From Gammaproteobacteria bacterium (GTDB taxonomy: Bacteria > Pseudomonadota > Gammaproteobacteria > Steroidobacterales > Rariloculaceae), in assembly GCA_963581225.1 (NCBI GenBank), contig CAUZMW010000003.1, forward strand, positions 1 through 44,194: 44,194 bases of DNA, written 5' to 3'. The notes below the pieces were generated by a model. It was given only the letters and a program-made list of their open reading frames with translations, was not told the origin of the DNA and made no database searches. Each line of letters opens with the position of its first letter. Positions within the stretch are counted from its first letter, which is position 1. The position numbers were made by a program, and so were the translations under genes. Below are positions 33,639 through 41,313 of the stretch, one piece after another.

Positions 33639-36764
<3,126 letters not shown>

Positions 36765-38021
36765 TCAGTGATCGTGTACGGCACCGGTCTTCTCGATGTC
36801 GGCTTTGAGGACATAGCTGTTCTCAGTCACATAGCGTGTGCCCGGGTCGAGGCCGCCGAGCACTTCAGCCCAATCGCCGGCCTGCCGGCCCAGGTCCAGC
36901 ATCCGAACCTCGTACTCGTCACCGATCTGCGCATAGACCACCGTGAAGTCGCGGAAACTCTGCAAGCCACTTCGTCTAACGGCGAGGGGGACTTCGTACT
37001 CGCCCACCTGAATCTCGGCCGTCACGTAGGTGCCGGGCGGCCACGCGCCATCGGTGTTATCGAGTTCGACCCGCGCGGCGACGGCCTGATTCGCGTCGGT
37101 CATGACGTTGATGTAGGAGATGGTGCCCATGACGGCCGCGCCGCCGGTCGCCGGCGCGATACTGACATTCGCGCCGAGTCTTACCCGTGCTCGGTCGCCG
37201 GGGAAGACGGCAAGCTTCACCCAAACCGATGACGTATCGATAATCGTAAACAGCGGTCTCCCCCCGGTCTGCTCGCCAGCGTGTGCGACGCGCTCCGTCA
37301 ACACGCCATCGATGGGAGCCGTGATCGAGTAGACATTCAGACTCTCGTTACTCTCCACGGTCGCGAGGGTCTGCCCCTCGGTCACGACCTCGCCCAGAAA
37401 TACGTCCACCGTCCTGATCGCCCCGTCGAAACGCGCACTGACCTGGCGGATACGCTCTGTATTCGGCACGATGTTGCCGTACACCGTCACCGTTTCCTCC
37501 AGCGTGACCGGACCCGCCAGCATCGTTTCGATCCCAAACGCCTCTGCCATCTCCGTGCTGATCTGCGTGCGTCCTTCGAAACTGTCGTACTCCCATCGAT
37601 GGCTGCCGCTGCCATAGGTCGCGTCGATGGAGACCGTGAATGAGTGGGGCTCGTAGATCACCGTATCGCCGAGCAGATAAGCTCCCTGCGGGCGGAAGCC
37701 GATCTCGTCGATGCGATTGCCGAGGCGCGTGAGCCGGACTTCGAGATCGAAATCTTCAGGTTGGAGCGATCTCCCACCGCTCGTCGCCCAGGCCCGATAC
37801 TCGGGCGGCACACCGGTTTCGAATATGGCGAGTTCGACGACGAAATCGCCGTCTCTGAGCAGGATGCCGTTATTCGGTCCTCGCTCCTGTGCTTCGTCCG
37901 CGGCCGCCTCGACCGCGGCGGCGGGCGAGCCGGGCTGCGGATCGCCGCTACAGGCGACAATCGTCGCGGTAACCAGCAGGGTTACTAACAGGCGTAAACG
38001 TGTCTTCATGACTAACCTCAT
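36765..38021 (-). CDS. czcB: RND efflux periplasmic adaptor
   Basis: Lipobox-like IVAC; ELAIFETGVPPEYR extra domain; VSARFDG, ITAPIDG, LKADIEK..A.HDH tail; ATGA overlap with czcC. Confidence 0.9.
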   Translation of the reverse strand: MRLVMKTRLRLLVTLLVTATIVACSGDPQPGSPAAAVEAAADEAQERGPNNGILLRDGDFVVELAIFETGVPPEYRAWATSGGRSLQPEDFDLEVRLTRLGNRIDEIGFRPQGAYLLGDTVIYEPHSFTVSIDATYGSGSHRWEYDSFEGRTQISTEMAEAFGIETMLAGPVTLEETVTVYGNIVPNTERIRQVSARFDGAIRTVDVFLGEVVTEGQTLATVESNESLNVYSITAPIDGVLTERVAHAGEQTGGRPLFTIIDTSSVWVKLAVFPGDRARVRLGANVSIAPATGGAAVMGTISYINVMTDANQAVAARVELDNTDGAWPPGTYVTAEIQVGEYEVPLAVRRSGLQSFRDFTVVYAQIGDEYEVRMLDLGRQAGDWAEVLGGLDPGTRYVTENSYVLKADIEKTGAVHDH

Positions 38022-39298
38022 TGTGCGCTGACCGGGGCGGCAATACCGACGCCAGTCAGCCGTTCGATCTCGATAACGACCTGGTGCGCACCGATCTTCG
38101 CTTCCAGGAGCTGATTATTCGCTGCGAGTAAGTCCGCGCGGACCGTGCTCCACTCGAAGTAGCTGTAGCGACCCAAATCGTAAGCTCTGCGTGTATCGAC
38201 GAGCGCGCTCTCGATAAGCGGTATCACATCGGCGGCGAGCCGCTCAGCGGTCTGCGTAAAGTGTCGCAGTTCCTGCCAGAGTACGAACAGCGTTGTCTTA
38301 ATCTTCACGCGCGTCGCGGCGGCTTCGGCACCGGTTCGCGCTAGATTCGCATGGGCCTCGGCGATACGCCCCTCGTTCTTGTTTCGTATCGACAACGGAA
38401 TCGAGATTCCACCGACGAGCGCGAAATCATCGTTGCGCTCGAGTCGGCGTACGCCGCCGTAGACCGTCCAACTGGGCCTTGCCTTTGCCTCGGCCAGCGC
38501 CAACTCCGCTTCGTGCACTCGCTGCTCCGTCATGTAGCGGAGCAAGTCCGAGTTTTGATCGGCACGCGCTACCAGGTTTTCAACGGGCTCGAGGACCGGC
38601 AGCACATCGAGGTCACCGCTGACCGAACCGAAAGACGGCCGCGTCTCGCCCCACTGGGCGCTCAGGCGATAAAGCGCCGACAGCAGTTCATGTTCGTAGT
38701 GTTCCTCGACCAGCTCGGCACGCGCCAGTTCCGCCTCGGCACGCGAGAGTTCCGCGTCGAGCGCCCGGCCTGCGGCGATCCGTACTCGGACGGCCTCGAT
38801 GATCTCCGCCGCGAAATTGACGCCTTCTATCGCCGTGAGCAAGCGTGCCTGATAAGCCATGCACTCGACAAAGCGGCGCGCGGTTTCAGCGGCGACGTCG
38901 AGCCGTACGATCTCCGCATCGGTTCTACTCATTGCGACGACGGCGCTAGCCGCATCGACGCGCCGCTCTCGAACACCTCGTTCGAGCACCCAACCGAGTG
39001 TCACGGTCAGATCCATCCGCTCGGTTCCCTCGAAAACGCCCGTACCGAAGGCATCTTCGACGTCGATCTCGAGCTGCGGATACGGTTTCAGATCAGCCTG
39101 TAGCAGCAGGCCCTCAGCCGCCTCGATCTGGTAACCGAATGCGATGAGGTCCGGGTTCCGGGCCATCGTTCTCGCGAGCGCCTCGGGCAAGCCGATCGCG
39201 GGGACGGTCAGCGACGACTCTTCCTGAGCCATAGCGAATGTCGCCAACATCGTTAGACAAAAACACGCGAGTATGTTGCGTGCGCGTAGATCCCACAT
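38018..39298 (-). CDS. czcC: TolC-family outer-membrane efflux protein
   Basis: Signal peptide AMA-QE; ARNPDL, ISIPL..RNKNEG, AY..GR; ATG at 39298 with GGAG 9 nt upstream. Confidence 0.9.
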   Translation of the reverse strand: MWDLRARNILACFCLTMLATFAMAQEESSLTVPAIGLPEALARTMARNPDLIAFGYQIEAAEGLLLQADLKPYPQLEIDVEDAFGTGVFEGTERMDLTVTLGWVLERGVRERRVDAASAVVAMSRTDAEIVRLDVAAETARRFVECMAYQARLLTAIEGVNFAAEIIEAVRVRIAAGRALDAELSRAEAELARAELVEEHYEHELLSALYRLSAQWGETRPSFGSVSGDLDVLPVLEPVENLVARADQNSDLLRYMTEQRVHEAELALAEAKARPSWTVYGGVRRLERNDDFALVGGISIPLSIRNKNEGRIAEAHANLARTGAEAAATRVKIKTTLFVLWQELRHFTQTAERLAADVIPLIESALVDTRRAYDLGRYSYFEWSTVRADLLAANNQLLEAKIGAHQVVIEIERLTGVGIAAPVSAQ

Positions 39299-39370
39299 CA
39301 AACGGATCTCCAATGACAAGCCAGCTTCCGCGGGCGCTGACTACGGAGCGAAGCGAAGCGAATTAGCTGA

Positions 39371-39390
39371 GAAAAGCGCCCGAAGGGCGC
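39371..39390 (-). terminator. Terminator-like hairpin between the leader ORF and czcC
   Basis: Minus strand reads GCGCCC-TTC-GGGCGC-TTTTC, starting 10 nt after the leader stop; the U-tract is short. Confidence 0.5.
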
Positions 39391-39400
39391 ACAACTGAGT

Positions 39401-39838
39401 CTAGAGACTCGATGTAATGGAGAGGCGAGGAGGCGCCCTGAGCGGTGGCCGCCAGCGTTCATGGCGACCAATAAGGCGAGGAAGCGTCGTCGTCGGCGCG
39501 ATCTTATCGGCCGGGTTAAGAACCATGAGCAGCGCGAGTCCGAGTGCAATCAGGTACAGCATCAGTTTCGACACCGCGGTACCGAGTTTCACGATGGACA
39601 CGTCGGTATCACCGGAGTGGCCTTGTTCGCCGCCATGAACGGCCTCGTGCGACGCGTCGGCAAGATCCAGATGTGTCGTGTCACCGTGATGATGGCCGCC
39701 GGCTTGCCCGTGCAAATGCGTACTCTCTGGAGTACCGACATAGCCGTGAGCGTCGACATGCATATGGAGGCCGCTCAACTGCAGAGCGATGAGGCTTACG
39801 CAGGCGGCCAACATGACTGGAGTCGATAGACGATGCAT
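39401..39838 (-). CDS. His-rich membrane leader protein with C-terminal RAPP motif (candidate arrest peptide)
   Basis: Hydrophobic N-terminus, 12 His in residues 25-74, second TM at about 92-107, RWRPPLRAPP ending at residue 137 of 145. Confidence 0.8.
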   Translation of the reverse strand: MHRLSTPVMLAACVSLIALQLSGLHMHVDAHGYVGTPESTHLHGQAGGHHHGDTTHLDLADASHEAVHGGEQGHSGDTDVSIVKLGTAVSKLMLYLIALGLALLMVLNPADKIAPTTTLPRLIGRHERWRPPLRAPPRLSITSSL

Positions 39839-39844
39839 TGGCAG

Positions 39845-39853
39845 ATTATATCA
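39845..39853 (-). promoter_or_regulatory. Extended -10 promoter (TGnTATAAT), predicting a leaderless transcript
   Basis: Minus strand TGA-TATAAT, then exactly 6 nt before the ATG at 39838; no SD sequence. Confidence 0.6.
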
Positions 39854-40071
39854 GGCTGGAGAGCGCCGATCGTCCGCCGCTCGGCCTCGAATCGCCGCAT
39901 TCTCTGTACCCCGCGTGGAAATTGAGCCGCAGAGCGTGATGTCTGCTTTTCTCCCCGAAAGCAGCCGTAAAAAACGCAGGTTTAGACTCGGTCGCTATGT
40001 CTGCTGTCGGCATTCGTGCGTCTTCCATACGTTCAGCCTCTCGGCCGGCAACAGGATCTGGCTCGCTAATC

Positions 40072-41313
40072 TCAGGCAAGATTCATACGGTGGGTACAGG
40101 TCATCGATGCCAGATCCAGCCGCGCTATATGATCGTCTACCGAACAGGCGATGAACGCTGCGTCCTGATCGGGTAGGAAGGCGATGTGCGAGGAGCCACG
40201 CCCGACTTCGACTCTTGCGCTTTCAGCTTGAGACTGTGTGTCGTAGACACGTACATAGTCGGAGGAAAACCCCGTCGCGACGACCCAGCGTCCGTTTGGA
40301 GAGATGCCGAGTCCGTGCGGATAGGCCTCGGTTTTAAGAGTCGCGATCTTGTCCATGCTCTCGGTGTCGAATATCGACAGCGTGTCATCGAGAAAATTAG
40401 CGACGTAGAGCGAGCGGCCGTCCGGCGAGATCTCCGGCTGGTGCGCCCAGGGTCCGCTGGCGACCTGTGCTAGCAAATCGCCCTCTATCGACAGGCAACT
40501 TACCGTGCCGTCGAAAGTATTCGCCGAGTAGAGTTTGCCGCCATCCGGATGGAGCACTAGATGCGACGGCCCGTCCCCTACGCGAAAGCGACCAAGTATC
40601 CTGCCATCCTCGAGATCTACGCTGACGATGTTGCCGTCGCCGGCGCAGGGCACGAACACGCACCTGCCGTCCGGCGTAAGCAAGGGATCGTGGGGGCAGG
40701 CGCCGACGTCCAGCGTCTGTACTTCGTAATCCTGGGTCCGCGGCCGCACGATGGTCAGCGTACCGGTGCCGCCCCCTGTGACGCAGACGATGCCGTCGTC
40801 GGTTACCGCGGGCAGCTGTGGGGCTCCGGGCGCGGGCCACGCATGTTGTACCGAAAGGTCTGCGGTCGAGACCGCGAGCAGCTCGTTCGCTCCCGGGTCC
40901 GCGAGGAATACCCACTCTCCGGCACGATCAACCGCGAAGTGGGACGCTTTGGTCGCGATTTCGGCGACCTGGATGACCTCGCCCGTCACGGCGTCGAACT
41001 GGACCAGGCGCTTGGATCGCTCGCAGGCCCAAACGCCGGCTGATCCTGCCGCGGTCACGTGATGGAGCCCGGGGATCGTGCCCTGCCCCGGCGACAGACC
41101 GCGGCGAACCGTCAGCAGCCAGCCGCCGCCCTCATCTTCGTGAATGCGGTGCTTGGCGCCGGCCTCGATGAGCCAGATACGCAGGCTCGCGTCCACGGAG
41201 TCGAGGAGTACCGGGAATTCGGCGCCATCCTCAGCCGCATTGTAGGCACCGAGAATGGCGAGGCCCGCCTCGCGGGCCGGCATATCTCGACAGTCTAGTG
41301 TTTGCGGGTGCAT
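40072..41313 (-). CDS. YncE/YVTN-type beta-propeller protein with small N-terminal TusA-like domain
   Basis: About eight repeats such as VGACPHD..TPDGR, GDGPSHL..HPDG..LYSAN and AYPHGLGISPNG; N-terminal LDCRDMP. Confidence 0.8.
   Translation of the reverse strand: MHPQTLDCRDMPAREAGLAILGAYNAAEDGAEFPVLLDSVDASLRIWLIEAGAKHRIHEDEGGGWLLTVRRGLSPGQGTIPGLHHVTAAGSAGVWACERSKRLVQFDAVTGEVIQVAEIATKASHFAVDRAGEWVFLADPGANELLAVSTADLSVQHAWPAPGAPQLPAVTDDGIVCVTGGGTGTLTIVRPRTQDYEVQTLDVGACPHDPLLTPDGRCVFVPCAGDGNIVSVDLEDGRILGRFRVGDGPSHLVLHPDGGKLYSANTFDGTVSCLSIEGDLLAQVASGPWAHQPEISPDGRSLYVANFLDDTLSIFDTESMDKIATLKTEAYPHGLGISPNGRWVVATGFSSDYVRVYDTQSQAESARVEVGRGSSHIAFLPDQDAAFIACSVDDHIARLDLASMTCTHRMNLA

What the first reader, a model, noticed from the sequence alone, without database searches (positions are those of the whole stretch)
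39401..39838. His-rich membrane leader with a RAPP arrest motif upstream of czcCBA: candidate metal-sensing ribosome-stalling regulator of efflux
Seen: a 145-aa ORF about 100 bp upstream of czcC with a hydrophobic N-terminus, 12 His in residues 25-74, a second TM (about 92-107) and RWRPPL-RAPP (RAPP codons 39439-39428), about 30 residues after the TM. Known: RAPP-type motifs cause ribosome arrest (ApdA/ApdP), and the Bordetella uORF CruR (DUF2946, CxxC + RAPP) couples copper sensing to expression of a downstream uptake gene. A 30-residue spacing is roughly the exit-tunnel length over which membrane insertion can pull on a stalled chain. Inference: this is a His-based, CxxC-less analogue that senses Zn/Co/Ni/Cd and controls an exporter, so its output would be inverted relative to CruR. 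No metal-responsive transcription factor lies next to this operon.
Basis: partly seen in the sequence, partly recalled or inferred. Interest (0 to 1): 0.88.

Follow-up and report, generated by a model that had tools for sequence, protein, structure and literature searches.

The report
His-rich RAPP leader before czcCBA
A small histidine-rich membrane peptide ending in a ribosome-stalling RAPP motif sits in front of a heavy-metal efflux pump operon and probably switches the pump's translation on or off, a new branch of a recently described kind of metal-sensing leader peptide.

Summary
ORF 39401-39838 (-) encodes 145 aa with two hydrophobic helices and 12 His in residues 25-74. RWRPPLRAPP lies at residues 128-137, 102 nt upstream of an OEP-MFP-CzcA operon.

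It is a real, conserved family. An index-free HMMER search found 111 cluster representatives. In them G23, H25, H27, H41, H43, D79 and R-P-x-L-R-x-P-P are at least 90% conserved, with some RGPP variants. All 15 loci checked have an OEP gene next downstream.

TM2-to-RAPP spacing is fixed, while the His loop varies in length. The stop follows RAPP by 3-4 codons in 55 of 68 loci. In most MFE folds the czcC Shine-Dalgarno pairs with these codons inside a junction with two covarying hairpins.

Best reading: a RAPP arrest leader whose stalled ribosome unmasks czcC translation. Metal sensing by the His cluster, and its polarity, are inferred.

The concept is already published (CruR, CutF, RAPP uORFs). 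CutF-like genes upstream of OEP/RND are reported, and this family is a peripheral DUF2946 relative (21 of 111 weak hits). It is therefore a new variant of a known kind: His-only, two-TM, Czc-linked. No arrest or metal response was tested.

The parts
39845..39853 (-). Extended -10 promoter element TGATATAAT. Its last T lies 6 nt before the A of the ATG at 39838, which implies a leaderless mRNA.
   Evidence: Sequence read. In alignment A7 of 18 loci the positions equivalent to T109, A110, A112 and T114 are at least 90% conserved and the ATG is invariant. By my reading the -10 ends 4-7 nt before the ATG. The -35/-10 scanner found no promoter, consistent with a -35-independent extended -10. No transcription start site data.
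39401..39838 (-). Leader ORF, 145 aa. Public gene calls start it at M9, giving 137 aa.
   Evidence: The longer N-terminus (M-R/H-R-x) is shared by homologues in A1 and A2, and the ATG at 39838 is the invariant ATG in A7.
39767..39817 (-). Hydrophobic N-terminal segment, residues 8-24 (signal anchor or TM1), running into the conserved motif L-x-x-Q-x-S-G-L-H-x-H.
   Evidence: AlphaFold2 helix 2-21. G23, H25 and H27 are at least 90% conserved in A2. No signal-peptide predictor was available.
39587..39766 (-). His-rich loop, residues 25-84, inferred to be periplasmic. It holds 12 His. The conserved core is H25, H27, G32, H41, H43 and D79 (D-x-D-V-S).
   Evidence: Loop length varies widely between homologues in A2. 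pLDDT is 55-61. The topology is inferred from the positive charges at the N-terminus and after TM2.
39518..39586 (-). Second hydrophobic helix (TM2), residues 85-107.
   Evidence: AlphaFold2 helix 82-107. From the conserved K91 to R134 is 43 residues in the window and in the A2 rows I counted (P0028, P0065, P0101). In A1, 38 of 40 rows show the same gap pattern.
39428..39457 (-). RWRPPLRAPP, residues 128-137. RAPP itself is 39428-39439. Expected arrest state: Pro136 codon 39433-39431 in the P site and Pro137 codon 39430-39428 in the A site.
   Evidence: R130, P131, L133, R134, P136 and P137 are at least 90% conserved in 111 representatives. The arrest geometry is taken from ApdA/ApdP structures (PMC10951233) and the CruR toeprint (PMC12992588).
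39401..39427 (-). Tail of 8 codons plus the stop. It contains a proximal anti-SD UCUCCA (39423-39418) and a distal stretch (39416-39402) that the MFE pairs with the czcC SD and AUG.
   Evidence: Folds, and my reading of the complementarity. Most homologues have 3-codon tails (44 of 68) or 4-codon tails (11 of 68), by my count on A5.
39371..39390 (-). Hairpin 1: GCGCCC-UUC-GGGCGC followed by UUUUC. In the window it looks like a terminator.
   Evidence: 6 GC pairs, loop of 3. The equivalent hairpin is 73-80% paired with compensatory changes in A5. By my reading of A5 the U-tract occurs only in the window and L001.
39322..39369 (-). Second, imperfect stem-loop just 5' of the SD. It is the window's counterpart of hairpin 2 and contains the tandem repeat TTCGC x3.
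   Evidence: MFE. Hairpin 2 in A5 is 73.7% paired, and all 8 of its pairs show double-sided changes.
39296..39311 (-). czcC translation initiation region: SD GGAGA at 39311-39307 and ATG at 39298-39296.
   Evidence: The SD G-G-A is at least 90% conserved and the A and T of the ATG are invariant in A5. M8 of the ORF as listed is nearly invariant in A3.
38018..39298 (-). czcC-like outer-membrane factor.
   Evidence: PF02321, E 4.5e-34. IhpA-like but below cut-off.
36765..38021 (-). czcB-like membrane-fusion protein. Its start overlaps the czcC stop by 4 nt.
33639..36752 (-). czcA-like HME-RND pump.
   Evidence: TIGR00914, 1441 bits against a cut-off of 701.

Best explanation
The ORF is a cis-acting regulatory leader (uORF) of the czcCBA-like operon. 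It belongs to the RAPP/RGPP class of ribosome-arrest peptides and is a His-only, two-helix offshoot of the DUF2946/CutF-like leaders.

Proposed steps:
1. A leaderless mRNA is made from an extended -10 promoter (inferred from sequence conservation).
2. The N-terminal hydrophobic segment targets the nascent chain to the membrane, and the His-rich loop is exposed on the periplasmic side (inferred).
3. The ribosome stops with ...R134-A135-P136 on the P-site tRNA and Pro137-tRNA in the A site. This is inferred from the known RAPP mechanism and from conservation.
4. At that moment TM2 has its N-end about 44-51 residues and its C-end about 29 residues from the peptidyl-transferase centre. That is the range in which an integrating helix pulls on the chain, so arrest lifetime depends on how TM2 integrates. 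The spacing is shown; the force is inferred.
5. The arrested ribosome sits on the pyrimidine-rich codons in and just after RAPP, which otherwise pair with the czcC Shine-Dalgarno and close a three-helix junction. A long-lived arrest therefore frees the SD, and czcC is translated, with czcB and czcA following. The RNA complementarity and the two inner hairpins are shown by comparison; the switch itself is inferred.
6. Divalent metal bound by H25, H27, H41, H43 and D79 changes the pull and so the arrest time. For an exporter the expected sign is that metal prolongs arrest, as Cu does for CutF. This last step is the least certain.
For: Family and motif:
- phmmer against 1.84 billion representatives gave 111 hits at E<=1e-3.
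- In their alignment G23, H25, H27, H41, H43, D79, R130, P131, L133, R134, P136 and P137 are at least 90% conserved. Position 135 is A or sometimes G, and RGPP is also a known arrest motif (PMC12992588).
- Five of 5 loci found by profile search in relatives keep RAPP.

Context:
- All 14 loci inspected, plus the window, have leader, then a 425-460 aa ORF, then a 412-424 aa ORF.
- 15 of 15 of the first ORFs are PF02321 OEP.
- The pump is CusA/CzcA family.
- No regulator was found among 10 upstream neighbours.

Spacing:
- K91 to R134 is 43 residues in the window and in the rows counted. 38 of 40 rows of A1 share the gap pattern, while the His loop varies greatly in length.
- Force-profile work places the onset of TMH pulling at an N-end about 45 residues from the PTC and its end at a C-end about 45 residues from the PTC (PMC7886326, passages).

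RNA:
- The stop lies 3 codons after RAPP in 44 of 68 loci and 4 codons after it in 11 of 68 (my count on A5).
- Hairpins 1 and 2 are 73-80% paired. Their covariation is exceeded by 0 of 500 shuffles and by none of the slid controls.
- In MFE folds the czcC SD pairs with the RWRPPLRAPP/tail codons in 16 of 21 evaluable loci, partly in 3 and not in 2 (my reading).
- Exact complements of 7 nt or more to the SD/start zone fall in the 32-nt RAPP/tail zone in 10 of 27 loci. They fall in the 149-nt upstream coding zone in 4 of 27. There are 7 different sequence solutions (only the 5 longest pairs per locus were printed, so both counts are lower bounds).

Precedent:
- CruR: RAPP-dependent, arrest shown in vitro (PMC9426467; PMC12992588).
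- CutF: Cu-enhanced stalling melts a stem hiding the cutO SD (PMC9973294, abstract, passages, sections 10-12 and 25; bioRxiv 10.1101/2025.02.05.636593, abstract and Discussion).

Homology: 21 of 111 members hit Pfam DUF2946 at E<=1, best 2.3e-7.

Weak hint of expression: short contigs from three RNA libraries of three studies (X15, X17, X18) run from the RAPP region across hairpin 1 to 39320-39337. DNA carry-over cannot be excluded.
Against: - No experiment: arrest, metal binding and regulation are all untested.
- A fixed-column test of the SD/anti-SD helix on 68 loci gave only 49% paired cells, because the register differs between loci. The support therefore rests on per-locus folds and repeat counts that I read by eye.
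- Pro, Leu and Ser codons are pyrimidine-rich, so short anti-SD matches are expected by chance.
- When the 22 nt covered by an arrested ribosome are removed, the SD is free in the MFE in only 5 of 12 loci. In 7 of 12, the window included, it re-pairs with another pyrimidine stretch further 3'.
- The window has an atypical 8-codon tail, and its strongest predicted pairing lies outside the arrested footprint. In the window itself, 'ribosome passage opens the SD' is as compatible as 'arrest opens the SD'.
- Fold z-scores are modest: -3.7 to +1.4, and -1.4 for the window.
- One subgroup (P0030, P0031) keeps RAPP but has a polar 'TM2', so the helix is not universal.
- The window protein itself is below the DUF2946 threshold (11.5 against 23.7 bits).
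- Metal specificity and polarity are pure inference.
Confidence: 0.6

Rival explanations
1. Arrest controls transcription rather than translation initiation. A ribosome held at RAPP, or released from it, decides whether RNA polymerase terminates between the leader and czcC. Termination would be Rho-dependent as in CruR, or would occur at hairpin 1, which in the window is followed by UUUUC.
For: CruR works this way (PMC9426467). The window has a terminator-like site 11 nt after the stop, at 39390-39371. The leader's 3' end is C-rich. This could coexist with SD masking.
Against: By my reading of A5 the U-tract after hairpin 1 is present only in the window and L001; other loci keep the hairpin without it. 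The conserved features are the SD-proximal hairpin 2 and the anti-SD complementarity. Contigs from three RNA libraries cross hairpin 1 (weak). No Rho site analysis was done.
Confidence: 0.15
2. The product is a stable small inner-membrane or periplasmic metal-binding protein that acts in trans, as a CzcI-like regulator, chaperone or pump accessory. On this view the C-terminal RWRPPLRAPP is a cytoplasmic tail motif and any pausing is incidental.
For: It occupies the czcI position. Conserved His/Asp residues and two helices would also suit a mature protein. CzcI is proposed to be a metal-sensing regulator (PMC9973294, passages). Both CzcI and this protein give weak DUF2946 hits.
Against: The strongest conservation, beside a few His/Asp, is the known arrest motif. 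It lies at a fixed 3-4 codons from the stop, with residue 135 varying only between A and G in the rows shown. The loop is low-complexity and varies in length. The TM2-RAPP spacing is fixed. The RNA downstream is built around the leader's last codons. hhalign against pMOL30 CzcI gives 1.8% probability, and the paper states that CzcI lacks the Pro motif.
Confidence: 0.15
3. It is an arrest leader that does not sense metal. Like SecM, MifM, ApdA or ApdP it would monitor Sec/YidC insertion capacity or envelope state through TM2, or it would simply set a constitutive coupling level for czcC.
For: RAPP leaders with localisation signals typically monitor the localisation machinery (PMC7897499 and PMC10987492, seen only as search listings with the start of their abstracts; PMC12992588). 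The fixed TM2-RAPP spacing fits force sensing as such.
Against: The downstream genes are a metal pump, not sec or yidC. H25, H27, H41, H43 and D79 are conserved at 90% or more in a loop that is otherwise free to vary. Related DUF2946/CutF leaders sense metal.
Confidence: 0.08

Closest known systems
CutF of Rhodobacter capsulatus and 'CutF-like' proteins (DUF2946-like; PMC9973294; bioRxiv 10.1101/2025.02.05.636593)
   Same: A small ORF (under 150 aa) directly upstream of a metal-detoxification gene. It has an N-terminal export or anchor signal, a periplasmic metal-binding motif and a Pro-rich stalling motif within the last 15 residues. An mRNA structure hides the downstream SD. The expected polarity is 'metal prolongs the stall, so the gene is ON'. 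The paper reports OEP/RND genes as the most frequent downstream neighbours of CutF-like proteins.
   Different: CutF uses CxxxC and a PPP motif, needs EF-P, and has a cleavable signal with no second TM. In the paper's main text the OEP-linked clusters are Cys-type, and the His-only clusters (14 and 17) sit next to HupE/UreJ. Here the loop has only His/Asp, the motif is RAPP, a second helix lies at a fixed distance, and the pump is Czc-type. Whether this family is among the paper's 29 clusters could not be checked because the supplements are closed.
CruR (Bp2923) of Bordetella pertussis, DUF2946 (PMC9426467; arrest shown in PMC12992588)
   Same: C-terminal RAPP close to the stop. A conserved spacing between the metal-binding motif and RAPP. 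First gene of a metal-homeostasis operon, with a structured intergenic region of 100-160 nt. Arrest is needed for downstream expression.
   Different: CruR has CxxC, senses Cu, controls an importer (TonB-dependent transporter), acts through Rho-dependent termination, and Cu relieves arrest. Its signal peptide is dispensable. Here there is no CxxC, the controlled genes encode an exporter, SD masking is the conserved RNA feature, and metal is expected to prolong arrest.
ApdA/ApdP and other RAPP/RGPP arrest peptides (PMC7897499, PMC10951233, PMC10987492, PMC12992588)
   Same: An R-A/G-P-P motif near the C-terminus of a small secreted or membrane protein encoded upstream of the regulated gene. Some metal-linked RAPP uORFs with TM segments and conserved His/Cys were described in Streptomyces lividans.
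   Different: The classical members regulate sec or yidC genes. The main text of PMC12992588 lists TonB receptors, YcnI, PCuAC, PepSY and DsbA as other downstream classes. The words 'efflux' and 'czc' do not occur in that main text; its appendix could not be read.
CzcI of Cupriavidus metallidurans pMOL30
   Same: A small ORF with an N-terminal hydrophobic segment and His-rich stretches, encoded 75 nt upstream of czcC. It gives a weak DUF2946 hit (E 0.026). The CutF paper classes it as CutF-like.
   Different: CzcI has CxxC, no second helix and no PP motif; its C-terminus reads ...RAPDRP.... There is no detectable profile similarity to this family (hhalign probability 1.8%). The pMOL30 czc cluster also has the two-component regulators CzcRS, which are absent here.

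Membership tests
RAPP/RGPP-type ribosome arrest peptides | An R-A/G-P-P motif close to the C-terminus of a small protein | tested here: met
   RAPP is at residues 134-137 of 145. The stop follows by 3-4 codons in 55 of 68 related loci (my count on A5).
RAPP/RGPP-type ribosome arrest peptides | The motif is conserved among homologues while the rest of the protein diverges | tested here: met
   R134, P136 and P137 are at least 90% conserved in 111 HMMER-found representatives whose mean column identity is 12%. A135 becomes G in some members.
RAPP/RGPP-type ribosome arrest peptides | An N-terminal localisation signal (signal peptide or TM) | tested here: inconclusive
   There is a hydrophobic N-terminus, and AlphaFold2 gives helices 2-21 and 82-107. 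No signal-peptide or topology predictor was available.
RAPP/RGPP-type ribosome arrest peptides | [quoted passage not shown] | tested here: met
   15 of 15 loci have OEP next downstream. Two hairpins covary. The SD pairs with the RAPP/tail codons in 16 of 21 MFE folds.
RAPP/RGPP-type ribosome arrest peptides | Demonstrated elongation arrest (peptidyl-tRNA accumulation or a toeprint at the Pro-Pro codons) | not testable with these tools
   Needs in vitro translation or ribosome profiling.
Pfam DUF2946 (PF11162) / CruR family | A score at or above the Pfam gathering threshold | tested here: not met
   The window protein scores 11.5 bits against a cut-off of 23.7, E 0.52, although aligned over profile positions 3-117 of 117. 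21 of 111 family members hit at E<=1, best 2.3e-7. The own genome has no PF11162 match.
Pfam DUF2946 (PF11162) / CruR family | An invariant CxxC (or CxxxC) metal-binding motif at a fixed distance from RAPP | tested here: not met
   The loop has no Cys; the only Cys is C13, inside the first helix. D-x-D-V-S and H-x-H motifs are conserved instead.
CutF-like proteins as filtered in PMC9973294 | [quoted passage not shown] | tested here: met
   The protein is 145 aa, PP lies 9-10 residues from the C-terminus, and czcC starts 102 nt downstream. Filter definition.
CutF-like proteins as filtered in PMC9973294 | A predicted Sec signal peptide cleaved by signal peptidase I or II | not tested
   SignalP was not available. 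There is no obvious A-x-A site, and a signal anchor seems more likely (inference).
CzcI | Sequence homology to pMOL30 CzcI | tested here: not met
   hhalign of A2 against CzcI gives probability 1.8%, with only 14 signal-peptide columns aligned.
HME-RND (CzcCBA-type) efflux operon, the regulated genes | CusA/CzcA family RND pump together with an MFP and an OEP | tested here: met
   TIGR00914 scores 1441 bits against a cut-off of 701. PF02321 and HlyD_D23 match. The MFP matches CzcB/NccB (E 1.2e-33) far better than CusB (E 0.016).

The most novel reading that the evidence does not exclude
A transcription-factor-free, nascent-chain mechanosensor for divalent metals. A His/Asp cluster at the periplasmic ends of two helices would bind Zn, Co, Cd or Ni while the chain is still on the ribosome. 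This would change the pulling force that the integrating second helix exerts on a RAPP arrest exactly 43 residues downstream of its start, and so time the unmasking of the czcC ribosome-binding site inside a conserved three-helix RNA junction on a leaderless mRNA. It would be the first non-copper, cysteine-free, TM-force-coupled member of the arrest-peptide sensors, and the main regulator of an HME-RND pump in several marine gammaproteobacterial families.
Probability: 0.4. Interest if true: 0.7.

Novelty: new variant of a known kind. Interest (0 to 1): 0.55.

Why it matters
Heavy-metal RND pumps are textbook examples of two-component or MerR/ArsR control. Here a widespread, unannotated module in marine Gammaproteobacteria appears to replace the protein regulator with a leader peptide; 10 of 41 related genomes searched carry it.

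If confirmed, it would extend nascent-chain metal sensing from copper/cysteine chemistry to histidine-based sensing of divalent metals. It would also give a natural system in which TM-helix integration force, ligand binding and RAPP arrest are combined at a fixed geometry. That makes it useful for force-profile studies and as a compact metal-responsive genetic switch.

For annotation, these ORFs are currently 'hypothetical protein', are often called from the wrong start, and fall below the DUF2946 threshold.

Tried and rejected
- Chance ORF: rejected by the family evidence.
- Python analysis of the 74 loci (tblastn context, complementarity statistics): the script machine was lost. All later counts were made with the fixed tools and by reading their outputs, which limits the statistics, especially for the SD/anti-SD helix.
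- Fixed-column test of the closing helix on A5: only 49% of cells paired. I rejected it as a test because the register differs between loci, and replaced it with per-locus folds and an inverted-repeat count with an internal control zone.
- 'Arrested-state' folds: mixed. The SD is free in 5 of 12 loci, so they do not settle polarity.
- Sigma-70 -35/-10 scan: 0 sites. A conserved extended -10 was found by alignment instead.
- tblastn of the leader against 72,556 plasmids: no match at E<=0.01.
- PF11162 in the own genome (96% complete): no match. There is only one copy of the leader.
- hhalign against CzcI: no similarity.
- ESM Atlas: the nearest clusters are unnamed, and a DUF2946 cluster scores only 0.91. 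This is a lead at most.
- NCBIfam on the leader: no family.
- Read laying: only four short contigs were laid. Parts of the stretch without cover, including czcC, and the depths say nothing.
- Supplements of PMC9973294 (Fig. S6, File S1), PMC9426467 (Table S1) and PMC12992588 (appendix figures) could not be read. They may already list this family.
- That 'His-only leader upstream of czc/OEP' is not in print rests on searches and on the main texts read, not on the supplements.
- Complex prediction and fold search were not used. The AlphaFold2 model is two helices and a low-confidence loop, so a fold search would be meaningless.
Full report
OBSERVATION. The minus-strand ORF 39401-39838 exists as described. 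It is 145 aa with an ATG start. A hydrophobic N-terminus is followed by His at 25, 27, 31, 41, 43, 49, 50, 51, 56, 64, 68 and 74, which is 12 His in residues 25-74. A second hydrophobic stretch covers about 85-107, and RWRPPLRAPP lies at 128-137. The RAPP codons are at 39439-39428, followed by eight more codons and TAG. AlphaFold2 run on the family alignment gives helices 2-21 and 82-107 and a low-confidence loop.

Downstream on the same strand, 102 nt away, is an ATG at 39298 preceded by GGAGA. It opens an OEP gene (PF02321). An MFP follows (CzcB/NccB and IhpB-like), then an RND pump that scores 1441 bits on TIGR00914 CusA/CzcA against a cut-off of 701. The flanking genes are a beta-propeller protein, an MFS transporter and an M20 peptidase. 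None is a regulator.

IS IT REAL? A word-indexed search found 41 relatives. A full HMMER scan of 1.84 billion cluster representatives found 111 at E<=1e-3. In the alignment of those 111 the mean column identity is 12%. Even so, G23, H25, H27, H41, H43, D79, R130, P131, L133, R134, P136 and P137 are conserved at 90% or more. Position 135 is Ala or, in some members, Gly, and RGPP is the other motif shown to arrest readily (PMC12992588).

A pattern scan of one genome per GTDB species returned 74 loci. By their record titles these are almost all uncultured marine or sediment Gammaproteobacteria: Rariloculaceae, Woeseiaceae, Halieaceae, Porticoccaceae, Azotimanducaceae, Macondimonas and others. That set was selected through the WRPPLRAPP motif, so it says nothing about motif conservation. 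A profile search in 41 relatives (G000 counted) found the gene in 10, and the five loci returned for relatives (L078-L082) all keep RAPP, one of them as RPPNRAPP. The window's own genome (2.55 Mb, 96% complete) has one copy.

CONTEXT. In all 14 loci whose ORFs I listed, the leader (118-163 aa) is followed within about 25-110 nt by a 425-460 aa ORF and then by a 412-424 aa ORF. All 15 first ORFs, the window's included, are PF02321 OEP. In the 68-locus DNA alignment the SD G-G-A is at least 90% conserved and the A and T of the downstream ATG are invariant. Upstream neighbours in ten loci are unrelated enzymes or transporters, and none of the 10 is a transcription factor. The leader plus pump therefore behaves as a self-contained module.

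PEPTIDE ANATOMY. The His-rich loop varies greatly in length between members. The segment from the conserved Lys that opens TM2 to the Arg of RAPP is 43 residues in the window and in the rows I counted (P0028, P0065, P0101), and 38 of 40 rows of A1 share the same gap pattern.

[quoted passage not shown] On that basis, at arrest the N-end of TM2 is about 44-51 residues and its C-end about 29 residues from the peptidyl-transferase centre. Force-profile work finds that a TM helix starts to pull when its N-end is about 45 residues from the PTC and stops when its C-end is about 45 residues away (PMC7886326). The arrest point is thus placed inside the pulling window of TM2. One subgroup (P0030, P0031) has a polar segment in place of TM2 but keeps RAPP.

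RNA ANATOMY. Upstream, 18 loci share an extended -10 element (TGnTATAAT-like) that ends 4-7 nt before the invariant ATG. This implies a leaderless mRNA and makes ATG 39838, not the annotated M9, the start.

Downstream, the stop follows RAPP by 3 codons in 44 of 68 loci and by 4 codons in 11 of 68 (my count on A5). The window, with 8 codons, is atypical. Its close relative L003 has a stop after three codons, followed by sequence homologous to the window's extra codons.

Two hairpins are conserved, one after the stop and one immediately 5' of the SD. Their cells are 73-80% paired on a plain MAFFT alignment. All 8 pairs of hairpin 2 show double-sided changes. The covariation score of the whole structure tested is 0.251, against 0.184 in shuffles (0 of 500 reach it) and at most 0.13 in slid controls.

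In MFE folds the czcC SD pairs with the RWRPPLRAPP or tail codons and closes a three-helix junction. This holds in 16 of 21 evaluable loci, partly in 3, and not in 2 (my reading).

As an internal control I counted exact inverted repeats of 7 nt or more whose 3' arm lies in the SD/start zone. In 10 of 27 loci the 5' arm lies in the 32-nt RAPP/tail zone. In 4 of 27 it lies in the 149-nt coding zone upstream, and two of those touch only post-ATG codons. Both counts are lower bounds, since only the five longest pairs per locus were printed. The ten use seven different sequence pairs, for example TCTCCTT/AAGGAGA, ATCTCCCT/AGGGAGAT, CTCCCTA/TAGGGAG and AACACATC/GATGTGTT. This resembles covariation.

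These anti-SD stretches lie from about -4 to +11 nt relative to the last RAPP base. That is inside the roughly +15 nt that a ribosome with Pro136 in the P site covers.

MECHANISM. The best-supported model is the SecM/CutF logic. A ribosome held at RAPP occupies the anti-SD, the junction cannot close, and czcC is translated, with czcB and czcA following (czcB overlaps czcC by 4 nt). The arrest lifetime would be set by TM2 integration and modulated by metal bound to the conserved His/Asp cluster. For an exporter, metal should prolong arrest, as Cu does for CutF.

Shown: the motif, the spacing, the synteny, the two hairpins and the enrichment of SD complements at the arrest site. Inferred: arrest itself, topology, metal binding and polarity.

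Evidence against the model:
- The fixed-column test of the closing helix is weak, at 49%.
- Pyrimidine-rich Pro, Leu and Ser codons make anti-SD matches likely by chance.
- With the arrested footprint removed, the SD is free in only 5 of 12 folds. It re-pairs elsewhere in 7 of 12, the window included.
- In the window the strongest pairing (39416-39402 with the SD and AUG) lies beyond the footprint, so 'ribosome passage opens the SD' cannot be excluded there.
- The window's hairpin 1 carries a U-tract and scores as a terminator. This keeps an attenuation layer, or a Rho mechanism as in CruR, open.

Short contigs from three RNA libraries of three studies span 39320-39507, crossing hairpin 1. This is a weak hint of read-through transcription, and DNA carry-over is not excluded.

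COMPARISON WITH WHAT IS KNOWN. The window protein aligns over the whole DUF2946 profile, but at 11.5 bits against a 23.7-bit cut-off. 21 of 111 family members hit at E<=1, best 2.3e-7. The family lacks the defining CxxC. I therefore treat it as a peripheral relative rather than a member.

CruR (DUF2946; CxxC plus RAPP) regulates a Cu importer through Rho, and Cu relieves arrest (PMC9426467). CutF (DUF2946-like; CxxxC plus PPP) turns on the Cu oxidase CutO by Cu-enhanced stalling that melts an SD-masking stem (PMC9973294; bioRxiv 10.1101/2025.02.05.636593).

The CutF paper's survey reports OEP/RND genes as the commonest downstream neighbours of CutF-like proteins. In its main text these are Cys-type, while the His-only clusters sit next to HupE/UreJ. 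It classes CzcI as CutF-like without a Pro motif.

pMOL30 CzcI shows no profile similarity to this family (hhalign probability 1.8%), although it too gives a weak DUF2946 hit. By eye it shares 'D-T-D' before its CxxC and ends with ...RAPDRP.... These are resemblances by eye, not evidence.

PMC12992588 shows that RAPP/RGPP uORFs lie upstream of many metal-homeostasis genes. Its main text does not mention efflux or czc. Supplements of all these papers were closed, so prior listing of this family cannot be excluded.

VERDICT. It is a new variant of a known kind: a His-only, two-helix, RAPP leader family dedicated to Czc-type HME-RND pumps, with a fixed TM-to-RAPP geometry, a leaderless mRNA and a conserved SD-masking junction. 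Confidence that it is an arrest leader controlling czcC translation is 0.6. Confidence in metal sensing with CutF-like polarity is lower. Interest is 0.55.

Noticed in passing
window 39836-39853 (-); A7, 18 loci: A conserved extended -10 box (TGnTAtAaT) ends 4-7 nt before the leader's invariant ATG, and no SD precedes that ATG. The leader is probably translated from a leaderless mRNA. Public gene calls (137 aa, starting at M9) appear to use the wrong start.
   Followed up: partly
window 39340-39360 (-), around 39347: The intergenic stem contains a tandem repeat TTCGC x3. All three RNA-library contigs laid there (X15, X17, X18) lack 5 nt at 39347, so related strains carry one repeat unit fewer.
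   Followed up: no
L005-L007, L010-L012, L015; proteins P0030, P0031: A Rariloculaceae-type subgroup keeps RWRPPLRAPP but has a polar segment where TM2 should be. In L006, L010, L011 and L012 the intergenic region is only about 45-50 nt, with a single GC-rich hairpin before the SD. L005, L007 and L015 have longer tails after RAPP. This may be a different way of releasing or reading the arrest.
   Followed up: no
L077 15176-15523 (pMOL30 czcI): CzcI ends with ...N-A-R-A-P-D-R-P-Q-W..., has D-T-D just before its CxxC, and has a signal segment ...L-P-F-Q-F-S-W. By eye these echo RAPP, D-T-D-V-S and L-A-L-Q-L-S-G of the window protein. hhalign finds no significant similarity. This could be a decayed RAPP leader or coincidence.
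   Followed up: partly
window 40072-41313 (-): The gene upstream of the leader encodes a 413-aa YncE/lactonase-type beta-propeller with weak N-terminal TusA/DUF2249-like hits. L001 has an ORF of the same length (413 aa) in the same position. Any link to the pump is unknown.
   Followed up: no
window 39397-39410 (-): A small hairpin GAGUC-UCUA-GACUC straddles the leader's stop codon. L003 has GAGUC-UUUC-GACUC at the homologous place, but there it lies after an earlier stop. The window clade seems to have extended the ORF by reading through the ancestral three-codon tail.
   Followed up: partly
runs X1-X14: Fourteen DNA runs, labelled seawater, marine or hydrothermal-vent metagenomes, hold half or more of the sampled words of 39250-39900. 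One of them may be the source of this DNA. The organism or close strains are therefore recurrent in marine samples.
   Followed up: no
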